Shown here in pieces: positions 40,847 through 49,983 of a stretch of 64,000 nucleotides of DNA. Under the pieces are notes generated by a model, which had not been told where the DNA came from, did not search any database, and saw nothing but the letters and a program-made list of their open reading frames with translations. Made by a program: the position numbers and the translations under genes. Origin of the DNA: Promethearchaeota archaeon (lineage in GTDB: Archaea; Asgardarchaeota; Lokiarchaeia; Sigyniarchaeales; SOKP01); assembly GCA_048937405.1 (NCBI GenBank), contig JBHLNF010000002.1, positions 192,001 through 256,000 of the forward strand, given 5' to 3'. Numbering within the stretch: position 1 is the first letter of the stretch; the number at the start of each line of letters is the position of its first letter.

Positions 40847-42274
40847 TTATGTAGTTATTTTCCATCTGGGTCCTTCTGCTCCATCTTCAATTTGAATTCC
40901 GACTTCTTTTAATTTTTGTCTAATTTTATCACTTAATTCATAATTTTTTTCTTTTCTTGATTGTTCTCGAATATTAATTATTATCTCCATTAATTCATTT
41001 AGTTTTTGATCATCAAAACCTTTCTTTTTTGTGAAATCAAGTCCTAGAACTCCAAGTAATTCAATAAGAGTATCTCTTGCTTTTTTAAGTAATTCTTTTT
41101 TATTATCCAGTGATGAATTAACTTGTTTTATAAATTCATAAATTGCGGCAAAAGCTTTTGGAGTATTAAAATCATCATCCATAGCTTCCTCAAAACTACT
41201 TCTTACATCTTTTATTGCTGATTTAAGTGTATCATTATTTCCACCAGTGGAATGTTCAATGTTATTCAAACAATTTCTAATTTTTTCAATGTTACTTTTG
41301 GCATTCTCTATTACTTTTGGATTCCAATCCACAGCAGATCGATAATGACTCGAAACTAGGCCCATTTTTACCACAAGTCCTCCGTGTTCATTAATTAATT
41401 CACGGGCAGTGACATAGTTTCCAAGACTTTTACTCATTTTCTGCCCATTTACAGTTATAAATTCTGCATGCATCCACCAATTAACAAACTTTTTACCTGT
41501 TGCAGCCTCAGATTGAGCAATTTCATTTGGATGATGAGTAGGAATATGATCAATTCCTCCTCCGTGAATATCTAATGTTTCTCCTAAATATTTCATTCCC
41601 ATTACCGAACATTCAAGATGCCATCCAGGATAACCTTGACCCCATGGAGAATTCCATCTCATAATGTGGATTTGATCTCCTTTTCGTGCATTTAACCATA
41701 ACGCAAAGTCATAATAATTCCTTTTTAGTGGATCTTGAGCCACACGTGCCTGTGCTTTTTCCTCATCAAATTTTAATTTGGCAAGTTTTCCATAGTCCTT
41801 AAATTTAAAAGTATCATAATATACGTTTCCTTCAACTTCATAAGCATAACCTTTTTTTAGTAAAATCTTTATGATTTCGATCATTTCGGGAATAAGTGCT
41901 GTTGCTCTAGGGGATATATTTGGTCTTTGAATATTTAGATCGTCAATATCTCTCCAATATTTTTCGATTTGTTTATCGACCAATTCCCATGGATTTATCT
42001 TTTCCTCTCTTGCTCTTTTCTCTATCTTATCTTCCCCTAGATCTGCATCATCGGTTAAATGACCTACATCTGTGAAGTTTTGAACATGACACACATCATA
42101 GCCCTTATATCGAAGGTATCTCACTACCACATCCCAAGAACTATACGTACTTGCATTACCTATATGTAGATCATCATATACTGTCTGCCCACAAGTATAT
42201 ATTTTTACGCGACCTTCCTCTATCGGTTTAAATACTTCCTTTTGCCGACTCATTGTGTTATAGATTTTAAGCAT
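40847..42274 (-). CDS. cysS: Cysteine--tRNA ligase
   Basis: CGQTVYD..HIGN, PGWHLEC, DIHGGG.D...HH.NE, KMSKS. Confidence 0.96.
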   Translation of the reverse strand: MLKIYNTMSRQKEVFKPIEEGRVKIYTCGQTVYDDLHIGNASTYSSWDVVVRYLRYKGYDVCHVQNFTDVGHLTDDADLGEDKIEKRAREEKINPWELVDKQIEKYWRDIDDLNIQRPNISPRATALIPEMIEIIKILLKKGYAYEVEGNVYYDTFKFKDYGKLAKLKFDEEKAQARVAQDPLKRNYYDFALWLNARKGDQIHIMRWNSPWGQGYPGWHLECSVMGMKYLGETLDIHGGGIDHIPTHHPNEIAQSEAATGKKFVNWWMHAEFITVNGQKMSKSLGNYVTARELINEHGGLVVKMGLVSSHYRSAVDWNPKVIENAKSNIEKIRNCLNNIEHSTGGNNDTLKSAIKDVRSSFEEAMDDDFNTPKAFAAIYEFIKQVNSSLDNKKELLKKARDTLIELLGVLGLDFTKKKGFDDQKLNELMEIIINIREQSRKEKNYELSDKIRQKLKEVGIQIEDGAEGPRWKITT

Positions 42275-42350: not shown

Positions 42351-45206
42351 CTAATTCTTCACTTCTATATGTGCCTTCACTATTTTATTTTCAATTTTCA
42401 GTTCCTTTACATCTTGTTCAGCTTCTAAATTGTAAATGATACTATCAGCTTGTATCATCTTCTTAATTTTTTCTTTATGTTGTTCCAAAGCTTCTGAAAT
42501 TTCTTTATCAGATATTTCTAAATATAAATCAATTCGATTTCTGGTTGAGAGTTTCAATTTTTTTCTATAATTATTAAAATTTCTAATAAGATTTCTAGCA
42601 ATTCCTTCTAACCTTAGTGATGGTGTAATTTTGGTATCTAGTTCTACTATTAATTCCGAGTCTACTGGCATTTCAAGAGTCACCTTTCTCACATTTATAG
42701 ATTCTGCTATTATACCTAAATATTCTTCTTCAAGATCTACTCCTTTTAAAATAACCTCATTTAAAGCTTGTCTAACTGGAATTTTAGCATTATCTCTTAA
42801 TTCTAAGGACTTTTTGACTATTTCCCGTGCTAATTCCATATCTTTTAGAACTTTTTTATCAATTAATTTACTATCAAATTCAGGCCAAAACTCTAAATGG
42901 ACAGATTCTAAATTTACAATTCCTATTTCTCTTAATTTTTGATATATTAATTCCGAAATGAATGGAGTTAAAGGAGCTATTATCTTTGATAAATTTTTTA
43001 GAATGTACGACAATGTATTCATTGCTGATCTTTTTTCATTTATATTTTCACTCTTAAATCGATTTCTACTGTTCTTAATGTACCATGTAGACAGGTCTTC
43101 TATGAATCTGAAAAATAACCTACTGACTTCAGCTGTATCATAATCATCCAATAGCAGTGTTGTATCCCTTAAAAGACTATTCAGTAAACTTATAATCCAG
43201 CGATCTAAAATATTGTCTGAAGTTGTATTTTTCATAGGTATATTTTGCATGTTAACTAAAGAATAGAATTTTAGAACATTTATCAACAATAAGTTGAATC
43301 TACGGTAGACTTGCTTTACTATCTCTTCTTTAAAATATAAATCTTGCGCCCTCATTAACTGAGATGACAATAGATATATTCTTAACGCATCAGCTCCATA
43401 TTTTTCAATTATCTGGTTTGGATCTGGGAAATTTCTTCTAGATTTTGACATCTTTGATCCATCTTCAGCAAGTATATTGCCATTTATCACAACATTTTTA
43501 AACGGAATCTCATCAAATAATAACACAGCTACCACATGCATATAGTAAAACCATGCTCTAACCTGCCCGATATACTCAGAAACAAAATCGCATGGAAAAT
43601 TATGCTTAAACCATTCCATATTCTCAAAGGGATAATGTTTAGCTGCATATGGCATTGATCCTGATTCCAACCAACAATCGAATACCTCAGGTATACGAGT
43701 CATTTTTTTACCGCAATTTGAACATTGAAGATGAATTTTATCAACTATATGTCTATGTAGATCCAAATCATCAGGAACTTCTTCTATAGCATTCTCCTGC
43801 AATTCTTTAACTGAACCAATGACTTTAATTAGCTTGCACTCTTCACATTCCCAAATGGGCATAGCAGTAGCCCAAAATCGGTTTCTTGAAATACACCAGT
43901 CAGGAGCACTCTTCATAATATTTTGATATCGTCTTGAAATTTCTTTAGGATACCAGTTGATTTTTTCATTAGTTTCCAAAAGTCTTGGTTTTATTTTTTG
44001 AATATCAATAAACCACGCATCAAGAGCGTTATATATTAAGGGTGTATCGCATCTATAACAAAATGGATAGGAATGAGTGTAATCTTCTACATTAAATAAA
44101 AGATTCCGTGTTTCTAAATCCTCCAAAACCTCATTGTCTATTTCTTTAAACCACAAGCCCCTCCATTCTTTCGGACCATCAACAAGATCACCATGTTCAT
44201 CAAGATGTTGAATTATCGGCAAATCATACTTTTTAATCATTTCATAATCAAATTCTCCATATATCGCTAAATGAATAATCCCTGTTCCTTCATCAGATAA
44301 TACATCATCACCGCCATCGAGAATGAAATACCCTTTTTTGTTAGTATTGGTAGAAATGTGATATAAAGGTTCATATTCTTTATTTAATAGAGATTTTCCT
44401 TTAAATTCATCAATGATTCTATAATCTTTTTTGATTAGATCTAATTGATTCTTTATTAGTATCAAAAATTCTTCATTAAGCTTAATTTTTACATAATCCA
44501 GTTCACTATTTACAGCTAAAGCAACATTTCCTATTAAGGTCCAAGGTGTTGTTGTCCATGCTAGCAAAAAAGTGTTTGGTTCACCTTTTAATTTGAATTT
44601 GGCAGTTATAGCTTGTTCAGTAACCTCCTTATAACTATTATCCATTGAAATCTCAGAATTAGAAAGTGGAGTTTCACATCGAGGACAATAGAATAAAACT
44701 TTTTTTCCACGCATTACAAACCCTTCATCGTAGATTTTTTTAAAAATATACCACACAGTTTCCATATAGGAATTATCCATAGTTTTATAAGAATTATCAA
44801 ACTCTATCCATTTTCCCATTCGATCAACTGTTTTTTTCCATTCATTTGTATACCAAAGCACTTTTGATCGACAAAATTCATTGAAATATGATATGCCCAT
44901 TTCGTAGATTTCATTCTTCTGCTTTAAATTGAGTTCTCTTTCACAAATACTTTCTATTGGCAAACCATGGCAATCCCAACCCCACCTTCTTTCACAGAGG
45001 TAACCTTTCATTGTCCAATATCGTGGAAATACATCTTTTGTAACAAAACTCAATATGTGTCCATAATGAGGTAAGCCAGTAGCAAATGGAGGTCCATCAT
45101 AAAAAATATATGGATTATCTTTTGGTCTATGCTCTACACTTTTCTTAAATATTTCATTTTCTTTCCAAAATCGTAGAAGTTCTACTTCTTTTTCATTATA
45201 AATAAT
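42351..45206 (-). CDS. ileS: Isoleucine--tRNA ligase (frame extends about 50 codons upstream of the ORF-track start)
   Basis: In-frame upstream of 45053: YNEKEVELLRFWKENEIF...FYDGPPFATGLPHYGHIL (HIGH motif); also GWDCHGLP, WTTTPWTL, WCISR, KMSKS. Only ATT codons (45206, 45203) lie between the in-frame TAA (45210-45212) and the HIGH motif. Confidence 0.93.
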   Translation of the reverse strand: MIYNEKEVELLRFWKENEIFKKSVEHRPKDNPYIFYDGPPFATGLPHYGHILSFVTKDVFPRYWTMKGYLCERRWGWDCHGLPIESICERELNLKQKNEIYEMGISYFNEFCRSKVLWYTNEWKKTVDRMGKWIEFDNSYKTMDNSYMETVWYIFKKIYDEGFVMRGKKVLFYCPRCETPLSNSEISMDNSYKEVTEQAITAKFKLKGEPNTFLLAWTTTPWTLIGNVALAVNSELDYVKIKLNEEFLILIKNQLDLIKKDYRIIDEFKGKSLLNKEYEPLYHISTNTNKKGYFILDGGDDVLSDEGTGIIHLAIYGEFDYEMIKKYDLPIIQHLDEHGDLVDGPKEWRGLWFKEIDNEVLEDLETRNLLFNVEDYTHSYPFCYRCDTPLIYNALDAWFIDIQKIKPRLLETNEKINWYPKEISRRYQNIMKSAPDWCISRNRFWATAMPIWECEECKLIKVIGSVKELQENAIEEVPDDLDLHRHIVDKIHLQCSNCGKKMTRIPEVFDCWLESGSMPYAAKHYPFENMEWFKHNFPCDFVSEYIGQVRAWFYYMHVVAVLLFDEIPFKNVVINGNILAEDGSKMSKSRRNFPDPNQIIEKYGADALRIYLLSSQLMRAQDLYFKEEIVKQVYRRFNLLLINVLKFYSLVNMQNIPMKNTTSDNILDRWIISLLNSLLRDTTLLLDDYDTAEVSRLFFRFIEDLSTWYIKNSRNRFKSENINEKRSAMNTLSYILKNLSKIIAPLTPFISELIYQKLREIGIVNLESVHLEFWPEFDSKLIDKKVLKDMELAREIVKKSLELRDNAKIPVRQALNEVILKGVDLEEEYLGIIAESINVRKVTLEMPVDSELIVELDTKITPSLRLEGIARNLIRNFNNYRKKLKLSTRNRIDLYLEISDKEISEALEQHKEKIKKMIQADSIIYNLEAEQDVKELKIENKIVKAHIEVKN

Positions 45207-45380
45207 TTTTTACACCTTCCTTATGAATTTTTTTTATAAGTATCAATTTACATGACTTAAAATTATCAAAAAAACATCTAATTTACAAATATTAGAGAAT
45301 CTCATCATTCACATATGATTTATTAGTGAAGCAGGATGTGGAATAAAAATTAGGAAAATTCACTTCACAAATAAATGAAA

Positions 45381-45455
45381 TTAGATAATAATAATCGTGG
45401 ATATGATCATAATCATATTTCTAATGAAACCTAAGAATTTAGTAACTATATTCAT
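45381..45455 (-). promoter_or_regulatory. Candidate Ile-rich leader peptide (uORF) of ileS
   Basis: ATG at 45455: MNIVTKFLGFIRNMIMIISTIIII*; 9 of 24 residues Ile, ending ATT ATT ATT ATC TAA; followed by a 15-bp imperfect hairpin. Confidence 0.6.
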
Positions 45456-45536
45456 AACATCCACATCCACTTTATATTATAAATAAGGTGAAATGCTCTA
45501 AAAAATATTTCGGTATTTTATCAGTTTATTTCATCA

Positions 45537-47525
45537 TTAATCCAAAAATATATAATTATGAGCTATTTTTCTTTTGTCTCTACCTGCTAGAATATGAATT
45601 TGTTTTATTGTTTTCAGTGATTCCTTACTAAAATTATCAATTTGAATATATATTAATTCGCGGTTTTTTATTCCCGCAAGTGAAAAAAAATACTTGCGTG
45701 GAGGATTTGGAGCTATATATGCAATATACCGTTCTTTTGAATAAATAATAGCAGCCTTTAGAAGACGTTCCGCTTTATTTTTAGTATCTCTATATTCATA
45801 GTCCATAAACGAATCGAAAATAGAATGCATAAATATTGCAGGAAAAATAGAAAGTAATCCTCCAACTTCTACGTGAGTGATACCAGGTCCAATTACATAA
45901 TCACCAGGATTCGTTGAATAGAAAGCCATATCACTTTCTCTATCATGTTCTGCCCACCACGTTAATTTATAAGGATATTTTTCAACTTCTCCATCATCAT
46001 TATCAAATATTACTACAATAGTATCAATTTTGCCTTGAATTTGTTGGATATTTTGAACATAAATTTTTTTCTTAAATGCCCAATTTCGAATAGTTTCTTT
46101 AATAGCAATCCCATCCATTAAACTAGATTTGAATTCTTCAATCTTAATTCTCTGATTTTTCAAATTTTTTATACTCTTCTTTCTAATAAACGCAAAGTAA
46201 TCTTCCTCTATAATATCTTCAGGAGGCCAAGAAACTGTGTAGTCTTTTCCCTTTTCCCATTTATCTCTCCATTCTCCTAAGTATTTTTCTTCAGGTCTTT
46301 CTTTTAATGGTACTTCTTTTTCTTTACCATAGGTATAAGGATGATGTCTACGTAATCTTATGTAACGGCCGCTTGGATCATAACCCCCTTCTAAACCCAT
46401 TTTCAATGTTTCATAATTATCACTCTCATCATTATAAGGATATTTAGTAGCTTTTTCCATGACTTTCCACGCATAATCATCATCTACAATATTTTTTGAA
46501 CTGGTTAATAAGTGATATAAATTCGGTAATAATCTTTGATCTGCTAATGAGAGATTCCTTGAATACTGAAATAATGTTTTTAATTTATGAAGGTCTACAA
46601 ATTCCTTGAATTCCTCTTCATATTCGTACTTTGCTTTGATTAAAATAGTCCTAATCTGTTCAATTTTATCATAAGAATTTAAAACACTATAAAGCTCATC
46701 AGGAGTCTCTATGCGTTCCAATGTTTCTTTTGAAAACTCACCTCTAAATTTTAACCATTTATATATATGATATGGCAACTCTCTTAAAATGAATCTGGCA
46801 TCAGAACCTTTTATATTGTAAATTTTTACATACTTATGAGGAACTAACTCCAAATCTACATCTTTGATTTTTTCTGGATTTTCTATATAATATTTAATAT
46901 TTTCCCAATGAGCCATACCGATAATAAGTAAAACCCTATGATATATTGACATTAATTTTAAAAGGTGGGCAGCCATATACTTCTCTCTAAGAATATCTTT
47001 TTCAATGAAATTATATTTTTGATCCACATTTTCTTGATTTTCAAGAAAATCCTCTAAATTTACTTGATCTATTAGCATATCTTTTTCAGTTTTAAACTCG
47101 TTTTGAAAGTATTTCGCTATTTGTTCATAGAATGTAGGAAGTCCAATCTGATTAATAGCATAATCATCTGGTAATTTAATGCTGGGAGGTAAATATTCTG
47201 AAACTGAAAGATCAATGAATTCAATTGGAATATTATGCTCAAGCCCAATTCGGATACTTTCCATAATGGAATCTCCAGGATCTACAGGAATATAATTCAA
47301 TCTTTTTGGATTCAATGTATCCGCATATCCAATTAAGGATAAAAAAGGCAATCGTTCAATCGCTTCTATTACTTCGTCTTGAACGTTATTCGGTAATTCT
47401 ACAGCAATAACGTCAGGAAAAACTTTAAATAATCCTGTACGGACCAATTTCGCAAATTCTATACGAGAATGAAAGGTTGGGATAACATAAATATTCTTAA
47501 ATTTAATATAAGGATGTTCTATCAT
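45537..47525 (-). CDS. Conserved hypothetical protein (N-terminus resembles TraB/ChaN-like folds)
   Basis: PTFH...IAVELP, REKYMA, IIGMAHW. Confidence 0.6.
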   Translation of the reverse strand: MIEHPYIKFKNIYVIPTFHSRIEFAKLVRTGLFKVFPDVIAVELPNNVQDEVIEAIERLPFLSLIGYADTLNPKRLNYIPVDPGDSIMESIRIGLEHNIPIEFIDLSVSEYLPPSIKLPDDYAINQIGLPTFYEQIAKYFQNEFKTEKDMLIDQVNLEDFLENQENVDQKYNFIEKDILREKYMAAHLLKLMSIYHRVLLIIGMAHWENIKYYIENPEKIKDVDLELVPHKYVKIYNIKGSDARFILRELPYHIYKWLKFRGEFSKETLERIETPDELYSVLNSYDKIEQIRTILIKAKYEYEEEFKEFVDLHKLKTLFQYSRNLSLADQRLLPNLYHLLTSSKNIVDDDYAWKVMEKATKYPYNDESDNYETLKMGLEGGYDPSGRYIRLRRHHPYTYGKEKEVPLKERPEEKYLGEWRDKWEKGKDYTVSWPPEDIIEEDYFAFIRKKSIKNLKNQRIKIEEFKSSLMDGIAIKETIRNWAFKKKIYVQNIQQIQGKIDTIVVIFDNDDGEVEKYPYKLTWWAEHDRESDMAFYSTNPGDYVIGPGITHVEVGGLLSIFPAIFMHSIFDSFMDYEYRDTKNKAERLLKAAIIYSKERYIAYIAPNPPRKYFFSLAGIKNRELIYIQIDNFSKESLKTIKQIHILAGRDKRKIAHNYIFLD

Positions 47526-47688: not shown

Positions 47689-49983
47689 TCACCATTTTTT
47701 GCCCTTTCCTTCCTTTTCCCAGTCTTCAAACGATTTTATTAATTTGTCAATTTCTTCAATATTTACTTGTTTTTGGAACACAACTTCTTTAGTGCTTTTG
47801 ATGTATTCTGCGGAGATTTCTCTGTTTTTAATCATATCTAGTATTGCTGAGAGGATATATGCTTCTCTCATCCCAGATTTTTCAACAATATCACTTACTT
47901 CTAATCTCTCGGAGTTTTGACTTAAATTAAAAATAAAATCTTTTGTTTTGATTATTCTTGTCGTAATGACATAATCCTTTAAAATTGATAGATTTTTATC
48001 CTTAAGTGTCTTATCCCTTATTTTATCAACATCAGAGAAGGTATCATTAAATAAACTTATGGATTCCTCAAATTTTTTCATTTCTCTTAATTTGAGAGCT
48101 TCTTCAATCTTTTTTTCGATTGTTTCGATATAAATAGAATCTAGGAGATTGAGTATATTCCTTGTAAGTTGTTCATTAATTGATTTATCGGTTATTTTAT
48201 CTACTAATTTTCCAGCAAGACTTAGATTCTCTAATGCTCCTATGAATTCTCCTTCCCTTTTTAATCTCTCTGCTTTTTCTACCAGTTCAGTTATTTGTAG
48301 TTTCATAATTCCACTTCGCATTGAATTTGTCATGTACTTTCTTGTCTTTTCCGTTTTTAAAAGATTTTTTTGATAAGAGTTTATAGATTCTTTTATAATA
48401 GGTTGGATATTCAAAAGATCTCCTTTTTCCGTCATTATTTTAATTTTTTGAGCATTTTTTTTTTTAATTTTCTTTTTAATTTCTCTATAACCTAATACTA
48501 GACCAGTAATAGAAACTGAAACAATTACAATAATAAGTACCCCTCTTAAAAGCCAATTATCAAAAAAGTTCAGTGGGTCTGTTCCAGAATTTACTTCTTC
48601 TCCATCTGTAAAACGATCACCATCAGTATCCGCATCTTTAGGGTTTGTTCCTAATTCTATTTCCATTCCATCGCTTAAACCATCAAAATCGGTATCTGAA
48701 TTATTTGGATTAGTAGAATAGAGATTAATTTCATCTTTATCACTTAACCCATCATTATCAGTATCAACACCATATTTTAATATGAAGGTATCATAACCAC
48801 CCTCTCCATAACTATGAGTTTGACCGGTGATAAATACATTTCCTGAACCATCTACTGCTATTCCCCACCCCCAATCATAATCAGAGCCTCCCCATGTTTT
48901 TTTCCACAACAGATTTCCATTCGAGTCAAATTTTAATAAAAAAGCATCATCCAAACCATATTCATAACCACCAATTTCACCTGTGATAAATATATTTCCC
49001 AAGCCATCTATAGCTATTCCATACCCTTTATCACCATAAGAATCAATCCATGTGTTATTCCAAAATTGATTTCCGTTTGGGTCATAATTTAATAAAATTA
49101 CATCTCCATCACTTGATCCTGTGATAAATATATTTCCCGAGTCATCAACCGCAATTCCATATCCATAATCAGAAGAAGAGCCCCCCCATGTTTCCTTCCA
49201 TAATTGATTTCCGTTTGTGTCATATTTTAATAAGATTATATCTCCATCAGTACCTGCTCTAAAACTGAAAGTAATACCTGTAATAAATATATTTCCCGAG
49301 TCATCAACCGCAATTCCATATCCATAATCAGAAGAAGAACCCCCCCATGTTTCATTCCATAATTGATTTCCGTTTTTGTCATATTTTAATAAGATTATAT
49401 CTCTATCAGTACCTGCTCCATAATTATAGGCATAACCTGTTATAAATACATTTCCTGAACTATCAACCGTAATTCCATTTCCATAATAGTTATCAGAGCC
49501 TCCCCATGTTTTATCCCAGAGTAGATTTCCTGATGAGTCATACTTTAATAAGATTAAATCTCCATTACTTGATCCTGTGATAAGCACATTTCCATTGCTA
49601 TCCAAAGCTATTCCCCTTCCCCCATCATATCCAGGATTCCCCCATGTCTTATACCAAAGTAAATTTCCCTTAGGGTCAAATTTTAATAAAAATACATCCC
49701 AGTCTCCTGCTCCGAAACTAGATGTTCGACCTGTGATAAATATATTTCCCAAGCCATCAACCGCAATTCCATATCCCTCATCATAATTAAAACCTCCCCA
49801 TATGGTATTCCACTCATATCTATTTGTATCACTAATAGATGGTAATTTTATTGTCCTTCTATTAATTTTATCATCCTGATTATCATAATTGAGTTTATAA
49901 TTTTGTTGTAACAAAAAACTAAAACATAAAATTGAAAGAAATAATGCAATCCCAATTTTCTTAGTATTAATCTTTTTATTCAT
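47689..49983 (-). CDS. Single-pass membrane protein: beta-propeller (SBBP-like) repeats + TSP3-like Ca-binding repeats + TM + helical/PCI-like tail
   Basis: WGG..D.GYGIAVD.SGNIFITG repeats; DTDNDGLSD repeats; C-terminal ILDMIKNREISAEY...VVF. Confidence 0.85.
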   Translation of the reverse strand: MNKKINTKKIGIALFLSILCFSFLLQQNYKLNYDNQDDKINRRTIKLPSISDTNRYEWNTIWGGFNYDEGYGIAVDGLGNIFITGRTSSFGAGDWDVFLLKFDPKGNLLWYKTWGNPGYDGGRGIALDSNGNVLITGSSNGDLILLKYDSSGNLLWDKTWGGSDNYYGNGITVDSSGNVFITGYAYNYGAGTDRDIILLKYDKNGNQLWNETWGGSSSDYGYGIAVDDSGNIFITGITFSFRAGTDGDIILLKYDTNGNQLWKETWGGSSSDYGYGIAVDDSGNIFITGSSDGDVILLNYDPNGNQFWNNTWIDSYGDKGYGIAIDGLGNIFITGEIGGYEYGLDDAFLLKFDSNGNLLWKKTWGGSDYDWGWGIAVDGSGNVFITGQTHSYGEGGYDTFILKYGVDTDNDGLSDKDEINLYSTNPNNSDTDFDGLSDGMEIELGTNPKDADTDGDRFTDGEEVNSGTDPLNFFDNWLLRGVLIIVIVSVSITGLVLGYREIKKKIKKKNAQKIKIMTEKGDLLNIQPIIKESINSYQKNLLKTEKTRKYMTNSMRSGIMKLQITELVEKAERLKREGEFIGALENLSLAGKLVDKITDKSINEQLTRNILNLLDSIYIETIEKKIEEALKLREMKKFEESISLFNDTFSDVDKIRDKTLKDKNLSILKDYVITTRIIKTKDFIFNLSQNSERLEVSDIVEKSGMREAYILSAILDMIKNREISAEYIKSTKEVVFQKQVNIEEIDKLIKSFEDWEKEGKGKKW

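What the first reader, a model, noticed from the sequence alone, without database searches (positions are those of the whole stretch)
45319..45470. Ile-rich leader peptide with alternative RNA pairings upstream of ileS: possible ribosome-mediated attenuation in an archaeon
Seen: uORF MNIVTKFLGFIRNMIMIISTIIII* (45455-45381) has 7 Ile in its last 10 codons and ends in four consecutive Ile, about 175 nt upstream of ileS-cysS. Five nt after the stop, UUUAUUUGUGAAGUG (45375-45361) pairs with UGCUUCACUAAUAAA (45333-45319). The loop contains UCCACAUCC (45342-45334), exactly complementary to GGAUGUGGA (45468-45460) at the uORF initiation region. Known: cognate-codon leader peptides control bacterial amino-acid operons and pheST; archaea couple transcription and translation, but I know of little evidence for such attenuators in them. 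Inference: ribosome stalling under Ile limitation switches the structure. Caveat: Ile codons are frequent by chance in AT-rich DNA.
Basis: partly seen in the sequence, partly recalled or inferred. Interest (0 to 1): 0.8.

Follow-up and report, generated by a model that had tools for sequence, protein, structure and literature searches.

The report
Isoleucine-sensing leader peptide before archaeal ileS2
A 24-codon mini-gene ending in a run of isoleucine codons, set inside conserved switchable RNA helices, precedes a second isoleucyl-tRNA synthetase gene in this Asgard archaeon and all its relatives that carry that gene; it looks like the ribosome-based amino-acid sensors of bacteria, for which I found no published report in archaea.

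Summary
The leader ORF (45455-45381, minus strand, ...IISTIIII*) occurs in all 24 distinct orthologous loci I could collect: 14 genus genomes plus 10 other MAG or metagenome contigs. In all 24 the frame is open while both other frames carry stops. Indels are 6 and 12 nt, and three ATT codons are invariant.

The 9-nt a/c complementarity is invariant, so it cannot be tested by covariation.

The regulated gene is an accessory, eukaryote-like ileS2 with a mostly ATT start codon, followed by cysS. The housekeeping ileS1 has no leader.

The same genus carries conserved cognate leaders before leuS, leuA, trpB2 and hisIE. This genome also has an Ile-rich sORF before cimA.

Best reading: ribosome pausing at AUU codons masks b, so a re-pairs with c and opens P2. 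The output step is unresolved: termination at U-tracts is likeliest, and SD sequestration is not supported.

Earlier notes of this scan describe the same leader on other genomes. I found no published report for archaea.

The parts
45497..45513 (-). Conserved CCGAAATATTTTTTAGA block. Candidate BRE/TATA of the leader transcript, or alternatively the T-tract terminator of the upstream gene.
   Evidence: C, A, T5 and A are invariant in 24 sequences (columns 3-19). The promoter role is inference only.
45471..45488 (-). Second AT-rich, TATA-like block (CCTTATTTATAATATAAA) directly 5' of segment a.
   Evidence: Conserved in the alignments. If it were the TATA box, the uORF mRNA would be leaderless and segment a would not be transcribed. 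That conflicts with the a:b covariation.
45458..45470 (-). Segment a, GUGGAUGUGGAUG. It is the 5' arm of helix P1 and the partner of c, and it resembles a Shine-Dalgarno sequence (GGAUGUG versus GGAGGUG) 6 nt before the uORF AUG.
   Evidence: Columns 49-57 are invariant in 24 sequences. The SD consensus GGAGGTGAT was derived from this genome. P1 pairs are counted.
45381..45455 (-). Leader ORF of 24 codons plus TAA: MNIVTKFLGFIRNMIMIISTIIII*.
   Evidence: The frame is open in 24 of 24 sequences, while the +1 and +2 frames carry stops in 24 of 24. It is 24 codons long in 21 of 24; the only indels are 12 nt and 6 nt.
45397..45406 (-). Segment b, UCAUAUCCAC: the 3' arm of P1, inside the uORF and one codon before the Ile run.
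   Evidence: P1 has 10 pairs and 97.9% of cells paired. Two pairs show compensatory changes: G-C to A-U, and U-A to C-G.
45384..45395 (-). Sensor codons ATT ATT ATT ATC, immediately before the stop.
   Evidence: ATT ATT ATT is invariant in 24 of 24 sequences.
45361..45375 (-). Segment d, the 5' arm of hairpin P2, starting 5 nt after the stop codon.
   Evidence: P2 has 15 pairs and 91.7% of cells paired. Six pairs show changes on both sides. z = -3.8.
45334..45342 (-). Segment c, UCCACAUCC: the last 9 nt of the P2 loop, abutting e. It is the exact complement of a and resembles the 16S 3' end (CACAUCCU versus CACCUCCU, the latter from general knowledge).
   Evidence: 99.5% complementary to a in 24 sequences, but both sides are invariant, so there is no covariation test.
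45319..45333 (-). Segment e, the 3' arm of hairpin P2.
45256..45274 (-). T7 tract plus GATAATTTTAAG. Candidate archaeal termination signal of the attenuator, or alternatively an internal promoter.
   Evidence: A T run of 5 or more sits 38-51 nt after P2 in 20 of 24 sequences. It is absent in the three most divergent.
45213..45220 (-). Shine-Dalgarno sequence of ileS2 (GGAAGGTG).
   Evidence: GG is invariant 9-14 nt before the start codon in 24 sequences.
42351..45206 (-). ileS2: an accessory, eukaryote-like isoleucyl-tRNA synthetase of 951 aa with an ATT start codon.
   Evidence: Pfam. NCBIfam TIGR00392 scores 824.7 bits and the protein is nearer MupA/MupB than ileS1 is. An in-frame TAA lies at 45212-45210. 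The start codon across orthologues is ATT 13, ATG 8, TTG 2, ATA 1. A second IleRS lies at G000:C18.
40847..42274 (-). cysS, 76 nt downstream of ileS2 on the same strand; probably the same operon.
   Evidence: Pfam. Adjacent in 12 of 12 loci whose flank reaches that far.

Best explanation
This is a cis-acting isoleucine sensor of the leader-peptide type in front of the ileS2-cysS operon of an Asgard (Promethearchaeota) archaeon.

Proposed working. A short leader RNA starts a few nucleotides upstream of segment a, which is also the SD-like ribosome-binding site of a 24-codon ORF.

When Ile-tRNA(Ile) is plentiful, the ribosome runs through the three or four AUU/AUC codons, terminates and leaves. 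Segment a then pairs with b (helix P1, closing over the uORF start), and d pairs with e (hairpin P2).

When charged tRNA(Ile) is scarce, whether from Ile limitation or from inhibition of the housekeeping IleRS1, the ribosome pauses on the AUU run. Segment b lies 1-4 codons upstream and so sits inside the paused ribosome. Segment a is then free and pairs with its perfect complement c. Because c abuts the 3' arm of P2 with no linker, this opens P2.

I take P1+P2 as the OFF form and a:c as the ON form. OFF would mean transcripts ending at the U-tracts in and 40-50 nt after P2, by intrinsic or aCPSF1/FttA-type archaeal termination. ON would mean read-through into ileS2-cysS.

Shown: the uORF is conserved and kept in frame; the AUU codons are invariant; P1 and P2 covary; a and c are complementary; the leader is linked to ileS2 and not to ileS1 or the upstream gene; parallel cognate leaders exist in the same genus.

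Inferred: the transcription start, co-transcription with ileS2, pausing, which fold is ON, and the nature of the output step.
For: Conservation: a leader ending IIS(T/A/D/E)IIII*, IIIIR*, IIIR*, IIIQ* or IIIS* is present in 14 of 14 genus loci, in 9 of 9 true motif hits, all directly before ileS2, and in 4 metagenome contigs.

Coding signature: frame 0 is open in 24 of 24 sequences against stops in both other frames in 24 of 24. Indels are 12 and 6 nt. The N-terminal half varies while ATT ATT ATT is invariant.

RNA: for P1 and P2 together, 94.2% of cells are paired against 35-49% for slid partners. Eight pairs have double changes, which 0 of 500 shuffles reached. RNAalifold finds the same two helices.

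Masking a ribosome footprint on the Ile run moves a from b to c in the four folds I inspected.

Specificity: the leader is single-copy in the genome. There is none before ileS1. It stays with ileS2 in L006, L007, L010 and L012, where the 662-aa upstream gene is not found.

Rarity: 5 of 5680 sORFs end in IIII.

System-level support: cognate leaders are conserved before leuA (8 of 8), hisIE (3 of 3), leuS (16 of 19) and trpB2 (17 of 17). This genome also has an Ile-rich sORF before citramalate synthase. For leuA the whole space between the uORF stop and the ATG is only 87-94 nt, about 50 nt of it hairpin, with a conserved SD. That leaves little room for a separate promoter.

Literature: a Loki archaeon is already recorded as having a eukaryote-like ileS2 beside its archaeal IleRS (PMC4861432).
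Against: No expression data: no RNA run could be listed, so the transcription start, co-transcription and premature 3' ends are unknown.

The conserved T-rich block between P2 and ileS2 is also TATA-like and could be an independent promoter. It is missing in the three most divergent leaders.

P2 is not followed by a U-run, and archaeal polymerases are not known to need terminator hairpins, so the bacterial output logic does not carry over.

Predicted accessibility of the ileS2 SD and start is the same with and without the stalled-ribosome mask (0.47 in both).

The a:c pairing has no covariation because both sides are invariant.

The a:b covariation rests on two pairs that each changed in one clade.

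A second TATA-like box 26 nt before the AUG would fit a leaderless uORF mRNA that lacks segment a.
Confidence: 0.7

Rival explanations
1. The ORF is translated and acts as a general upstream ORF that dampens or times ileS2 expression, without sensing isoleucine. The Ile run would be a by-product of RNA or AT-rich constraints.
For: The ATT run is conserved at the nucleotide level with little synonymous change. Ile is the commonest residue of intergenic sORFs here, at 12.8%. No output step could be shown.
Against: Five other loci carry leaders enriched in exactly the cognate residue, including rare ones such as Trp and His. The ATT run has no conserved pairing partner in the consensus fold. The housekeeping ileS1 lacks a leader.
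Confidence: 0.1
2. It is a structured RNA or protein-binding operator, for example autoregulation by IleRS2 or another RNA-binding protein, or a ligand- or tRNA-sensing element. On this reading the ORF is incidental.
For: P1 and P2 covary. Segments a and c are invariant beyond what simple pairing needs. aaRS genes in bacteria are often controlled by T-boxes or operator mimics (general knowledge).
Against: No T-box or any other Rfam family matches. The frame is open in 24 of 24 sequences while the other frames are closed, and indels come in multiples of three. Those are signatures of translation, not of an RNA-only element.
Confidence: 0.08
3. It encodes a small hydrophobic peptide with a function of its own, such as a membrane micropeptide, that merely neighbours ileS2.
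For: The 24-residue product is hydrophobic and its C-terminal half is conserved.
Against: The residue before the Ile run varies freely (T, A, D, E, I, Q, V) in step with RNA pairing. The N-terminal half is poorly conserved. The element is found only before ileS2. Sister leaders track the cognate amino acid of their downstream gene.
Confidence: 0.05
4. Segments a, b and c are DNA sites (inverted repeats) for a transcription factor that controls ileS2, and RNA folding is irrelevant.
For: a and c are perfect, invariant inverted repeats about 126 bp apart, next to TATA-like boxes.
Against: The a:b match relies on G.U pairs, which exist only in RNA, and it changes in a compensatory way. P2 also covaries. 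This reading does not explain the kept reading frame.
Confidence: 0.05
5. It is a chance ORF in AT-rich DNA.
For: The genome is 28% GC, so Ile codons are frequent.
Against: Conserved in 24 of 24 distinct loci at 73-94% protein identity of the neighbouring gene. Only 5 of 5680 sORFs end in IIII.
Confidence: 0.01

Closest known systems
E. coli pheST attenuator with the Phe-rich PheM leader peptide (a leader-peptide attenuator of an aminoacyl-tRNA synthetase operon)
   Same: A short ORF rich in the cognate codons lies in front of a synthetase operon. Alternative RNA helices have their choice set by where the ribosome sits. The expected logic is the same: starvation gives more synthetase.
   Different: The host is an archaeon. 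There is no hairpin-plus-U-run terminator directly before the gene. The sensor codons sit at the very end of the ORF. The switch uses the uORF's own SD-like segment as the mobile strand. The regulated gene is an accessory paralogue.
Enterobacterial ilvL, ivbL, leuL, hisL and trpL leader-peptide transcription attenuators (Rfam leader families)
   Same: Runs of cognate codons and a 1:2 / 2:3-style competition of RNA segments. A whole set of amino-acid loci in one organism uses the same principle: here Ile, Leu, Trp and His.
   Different: No sequence or covariance-model similarity. The archaeal polymerase and termination factors imply a different output step.
T-box riboswitches upstream of ileS in Firmicutes, including both ileS1 and ileS2 of Bacilli
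   Same: The same physiological signal (uncharged tRNA-Ile) and the same target (IleRS genes, including the eukaryote-like ileS2).
   Different: A T-box binds tRNA directly and needs no translation. No T-box match is found here, and the element has a conserved ORF.
Polycysteine leaderless short ORFs acting as cysteine-responsive attenuators in mycobacteria (bioRxiv 10.1101/834739, listed)
   Same: A tiny ORF with a run of one cognate codon, upstream of related genes, that senses the amino-acid supply through the ribosome.
   Different: That system is bacterial. I read only its abstract, so I did not compare mechanisms.
ermC-type translational attenuation
   Same: A stalled ribosome on a leader ORF remodels the downstream RNA.
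   Different: That system frees a sequestered SD. Here the predicted accessibility of the ileS2 SD does not change.

Membership tests
Bacterial leader-peptide (ribosome-mediated) transcription attenuators | A short translated ORF lies in the 5' leader of the regulated operon. | tested here: inconclusive
   The ORF sits 174 nt upstream on the same strand, is conserved, and carries a coding signature. Translation and co-transcription could not be observed, because no RNA run was listed.
Bacterial leader-peptide (ribosome-mediated) transcription attenuators | Clustered codons for the amino acid that the downstream gene handles. | tested here: met
   7 Ile in the last 10 codons. ATT ATT ATT is invariant in 24 of 24 sequences. 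The downstream gene is IleRS.
Bacterial leader-peptide (ribosome-mediated) transcription attenuators | Mutually exclusive RNA helices, selected by ribosome position. | tested here: inconclusive
   P1 (a:b) and P2 (d:e) covary. The alternative a:c is perfectly complementary but invariant. Its exclusivity with P2 is a steric inference from the zero-nucleotide linker between c and e. Constrained folds switch a from b to c.
Bacterial leader-peptide (ribosome-mediated) transcription attenuators | A factor-independent terminator (GC-rich hairpin directly followed by a U-run) as the regulated structure. | tested here: not met
   P2 is followed by AAAUAAA-type sequence, not by U's. The nearest T run of 5 or more lies 38-51 nt further on and is absent in 3 of 24 sequences.
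Rfam leader families and T-box (RF00230) | A match to the curated covariance model. | tested here: not met
   No family reaches its gathering score in the window. Only noise appears at E up to 10 around the leader.
Translational attenuation (ermC type) | The SD and start of the regulated gene are sequestered in one conformer and freed by the stalled ribosome. | tested here: not met
   The mean unpaired probability of the ileS2 SD-to-start region is 0.47 in the free state and 0.47 in the stalled states, over 24 sequences.
Eukaryote-like (type 2) IleRS | An IleRS that is closer to MupA/MupB-type enzymes than the archaeal housekeeping copy is, and that co-exists with it. | tested here: met
   TIGR00392 scores 824.7 bits. 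MupB and MupA score 703 and 675 bits against 478 and 499 for ileS1; both are far below the resistance-specific cut-offs. A second IleRS of 1048 aa at 32% identity is in the same genome. The literature notes ileS2 in a Loki archaeon. Drug sensitivity cannot be tested here.

The most novel reading that the evidence does not exclude
Asgard archaea run a family of ribosome-mediated amino-acid sensors (Ile, Leu, Trp, His leader peptides) on archaeal, eukaryote-like transcription and translation machinery. In this instance the sensor makes a eukaryote-like second IleRS inducible when tRNA-Ile charging fails. That would be a starvation response, and possibly an inducible defence against natural IleRS inhibitors. 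The output step would then be a new, hairpin-terminator-independent way of coupling ribosome position to archaeal transcription termination or RNA fate.
Probability: 0.55. Interest if true: 0.9.

Novelty: new variant of a known kind. Interest (0 to 1): 0.82.

Why it matters
Leader-peptide attenuation is a textbook mechanism, and it is described as bacterial. In six full-text searches of the held library I found no paper describing it in archaea.

Archaea couple transcription and translation, but they use a eukaryote-like polymerase that terminates at oligo-U tracts or through aCPSF1/FttA. A working attenuator would therefore reveal how ribosome position is read out by that machinery.

The case is in Asgard archaea, the closest prokaryotic relatives of eukaryotes, where uORF control of amino-acid responses is also central.

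It also gives a concrete, testable handle on why these archaea keep two IleRS enzymes. The parts are small (about 250 nt), sharply defined, and offer natural compensatory variants for experiments.

Tried and rejected
- T-box or any known RNA family: no match.
- tRNA genes in the window: none.
- Expression data: no RNA holder was listed for the stretch, so nothing can be said on transcripts.
- SD sequestration of ileS2 by the switch: not supported. A c:SD pairing judged by eye is at most 5 bp including a G.U pair.
- A small hairpin between the stop-codon region and GUGAAG, a lead from earlier notes: 80.6% paired, no covariation, no better than shuffles.
- A downstream 'segment 4' complementary to c+e: none found by inspecting the alignment.
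- A -1 frameshift from the overlapping ATG AAA AAG AAG TAG as the ileS2 start: rejected. The codon at 45206 is ATG or TTG in 10 orthologues with the same SD spacing.
- 16S rRNA 3' end: the rRNA is not in this assembly. The SD consensus was inferred from gene starts instead.
- The 19-base pattern scan of genome contigs returned mostly chance hits in bacteria; only 9 loci were real.
- Cognate leaders before the other synthetases I looked at (ValRS, a second LeuRS-like gene, a 689-aa class I enzyme, two class Ib, five class IIb, PheRS alpha): none seen.
- Conservation of the cimA leader: not testable, because no close cimA was found in the other 24 genus genomes at E below 1e-90.
- More distant IleRS2 relatives (72% N-terminal identity or less, 76 metagenome loci): no Ile-run uORF.

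Full report
WHAT IS THERE. On the minus strand the ORF ATG 45455 to TAA 45381 encodes MNIVTKFLGFIRNMIMIISTIIII*. Its last four sense codons are ATT ATT ATT ATC. Five nt after the stop, 45375-45361 pairs with 45333-45319 at 14 of 15 positions. The loop ends in UCCACAUCC (45342-45334), the exact complement of GGAUGUGGA (45468-45460). The hairpin alone folds at -10.6 kcal/mol with z = -3.8.

THE ORGANISM AND THE GENE. The window is 28% GC. It is contig C28 of a 4.47-Mb, 29-contig assembly. Look-alike loci in public genomes are labelled Promethearchaeota, that is Asgard, MAGs. A weak ESCRT-type EAP30 hit lies nearby.

The downstream gene is an IleRS (Pfam; NCBIfam TIGR00392). Its frame has a TAA at 45212-45210 and no ATG, GTG or TTG before the HIGH motif. 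An SD (GGAAGGTG) sits 6 nt before ATT 45206. At that same codon the orthologues have ATT (13), ATG (8), TTG (2) or ATA (1). ATT is therefore the start.

The genome has a second IleRS of 1048 aa at 32% identity on contig C18. The 951-aa copy studied here is found in only 14 of 25 genus genomes. It scores higher against the MupA/MupB models than the 1048-aa copy does. Its nearest relatives outside the Asgard clade, at 56-62% identity, include proteins labelled Micrarchaeota. A paper already noted that a Loki archaeon has a eukaryote-like ileS2 beside its archaeal IleRS (PMC4861432). So the regulated gene is an accessory ileS2. It is followed after 76 nt by cysS in 12 of 12 loci that reach that far.

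IS IT CHANCE? I took all ORFs of 120 aa or more as genes and listed the 5680 ATG sORFs of 10-60 codons that lie fully between them. Five end in IIII and four have 7 or more Ile in the last ten codons. One such ORF in front of a named gene is therefore unlikely, roughly 0.003 per 330 nt, but not impossible. Conservation settles it.

CONSERVATION. All 14 genus genomes with ileS2 have the uORF at the same place. A pattern scan of 185,579 species genomes gave 9 true hits among many chance ones, and all 9 lie directly before ileS2. A protein-guided scan of metagenome contigs gave four more leaders, all with N-terminal identity of 80% or more. None appeared among the 76 loci at 72% identity or less. 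This makes 24 distinct sequences, aligned as A2.

The peptide tail is IIS(T/A/D/E)IIII*, (S/A/Q/V)IIII?R*-type, IIIQ* or IIIS*. ATT ATT ATT is invariant.

Frame 0 is open in 24 of 24 sequences, while frames +1 and +2 carry 1-5 stops in all 24. The ORF has 24 codons in 21 of 24, and the only indels are 12 nt and 6 nt. The N-terminal half changes freely. These are the marks of an ORF that must be translated to a fixed point, not of a conserved protein.

RNA STRUCTURE. RNAalifold on 14 sequences returns two helices, and I counted them on A2.

P1 joins segment a (GUGGAUGUGG, 45470-45461) to segment b (UCAUAUCCAC, 45406-45397). Segment b lies inside the ORF, one codon before the Ile run. P1 has 10 pairs with 97.9% of cells paired and two compensatory events: G-C to A-U in one clade, and U-A to C-G in another.

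It has 15 pairs with 91.7% of cells paired, and six pairs changed on both sides.

For both helices together, 94.2% of cells pair against 35-49% when partners are slid. None of 500 shuffles reaches the 8 double-change pairs.

The a:c pairing is 99.5% complementary, but both strands are invariant, so it cannot be tested by covariation. Three-way constraint (a must fit b, c and probably the ribosome) would explain that invariance.

Segment a resembles the SD consensus that I derived from this genome, GGAGGTGAT, and ends 6 nt before the AUG. Segment c resembles the 16S 3' end. That last point rests on general knowledge, because the rRNA is not in the assembly.

Segment c abuts e with no linker. 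A 9-bp a:c helix and the inner pairs of P2 should therefore exclude each other; this is inference.

When a ribosome footprint on the Ile run is forced single-stranded, segment a pairs with c in the four folds I inspected.

LINKAGE. The leader is single-copy in the genome. The housekeeping ileS1 has no Ile-rich uORF. In L006, L007, L010 and L012 the 662-aa upstream gene is not found, yet the leader still precedes ileS2.

A SYSTEM, NOT A SINGLETON. I ranked all intergenic sORFs by single-residue enrichment and looked up the downstream genes. The pairs found were:
- ...LLSLLLLLLL* 87 nt before 2-isopropylmalate synthase.
- MKLKLKPIIGIIAIFIIIIGIII* 105 nt before citramalate synthase, the first step to Ile.
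- ...YLHHWLHHE* 81 nt before hisIE.
- MATVRNFCWQWPWRWR* 149 nt before a TrpB2-type enzyme.

In the genus, the Leu leader is kept in 8 of 8 leuA loci and the His leader in 3 of 3. The Trp leader (WQWPW..) is kept in 17 of 17. The archaeal LeuRS gene carries a Leu-rich leader (..SLVDLLAVLLLS*) in 16 of 19 loci.

Each has a hairpin beginning 0-8 nt after the stop, with a U/C-rich loop. For leuA, the whole space between the uORF stop and the ATG is 87-94 nt with a conserved SD. That leaves little room for a separate promoter, so co-transcription is nearly forced there.

The other synthetase genes I checked show no cognate leader.

MECHANISM. The sensor half is well supported: a translated ORF, sensor codons placed so that a paused ribosome hides b, and two covarying helices plus a perfect alternative partner.

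The output half is not resolved. SD sequestration is not supported (0.47 against 0.47). P2 lacks a following U-run. A T run of 5 or more lies 38-51 nt after P2 in 20 of 24 sequences but is missing in the three most divergent leaders. The same block is TATA-like.

I commit to premature termination, at U-tracts or factor-dependent, in the P1+P2 state, and to read-through in the a:c state. My confidence in a cis-acting Ile sensor is about 0.7; my confidence in this particular output is much lower.

WHAT IS KNOWN. Six full-text searches found leader-peptide attenuation only in bacteria, and none in archaea. The closest known systems are the pheST/PheM attenuator, the ilv/leu/his/trp leaders, and the T-boxes on ileS. 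The element fails the hairpin-terminator criterion and matches no Rfam model. It therefore works like these systems without being a member of those families.

EARLIER NOTES OF THIS SCAN. Earlier notes describe the same ileS leader and similar Trp, Leu and Ile leaders on other Asgard genomes. I used them as leads only, and re-tested here what I cite.

Noticed in passing
window 45204-45206 (-): ileS2 starts at ATT, an Ile codon, 6 nt after the SD GGAAGGTG. The same codon is ATT in 13, ATG in 8, TTG in 2 and ATA in 1 of 24 orthologous loci. Weak initiation may be part of keeping this accessory synthetase low.
   Followed up: yes
L040 (G000:C18:103000-107400), ORF of 1048 aa on the minus strand: A second, archaeal-type IleRS (32% identical to ileS2) with no Ile-rich upstream ORF. 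ileS2 is present in only 14 of 25 genus genomes.
   Followed up: partly
L251:3093-3179 (-), upstream of leuS at L251:66-2954 (-): A Leu-rich leader, MNLNKTALNINLRDLVSLVKLHAVLLLS*, lies 138 nt before the archaeal LeuRS gene. It is conserved as ..SLVDLLAVLLLS* in 16 of 19 genus loci and is followed by a conserved hairpin with a TCTTTTTCT loop.
   Followed up: partly
L034:1705-1806 (-); L033:1566-1616 (-); L039:301-465 (+); L037:301-372 (+): Cognate leader ORFs in the same genome. The Leu run before leuA is conserved in 8 of 8 loci. WQWPWRWR before trpB2 is conserved in 17 of 17. HHWLHH before hisIE is conserved in 3 of 3. The Ile-rich ORF before citramalate synthase has no close orthologue in the other genus genomes searched.
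   Followed up: partly
L031:301-402 (+) (G000:C2:16422-16523): A Met-rich sORF, MSMASMMNMMTMMMTMMMTTMMMMT..., lies 153 nt before CTP synthase. The pair is not obviously cognate and remains unexplained.
   Followed up: no
L038 (G000:C13:29402-29569, minus strand): A 55-codon ORF made largely of Met and Lys (MIMRMMGIMMMKKMKMM...) lies 81 nt before an Hsp20 gene.
   Followed up: no
L014 (G006:C1:303362-307771): In this single-contig genome the ileS2 match covers only residues 1-470 in an open frame of 537 aa, while the leader is intact. The gene may be truncated or broken.
   Followed up: no
window 47689-52247 (-) and 53309-54685 (-): Two tandem genes of about 760 aa with SBBP beta-propeller and bacterial TSP3 repeats. 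Further on is a 458-aa protein with a weak EAP30/Vps36 (ESCRT-II-like) hit.
   Followed up: no
window 45537-47525 (-): The 662-aa protein directly upstream of the leader has no Pfam or NCBIfam match. It is conserved at 86-91% identity over its last 300 residues in 10 genus loci.
   Followed up: no
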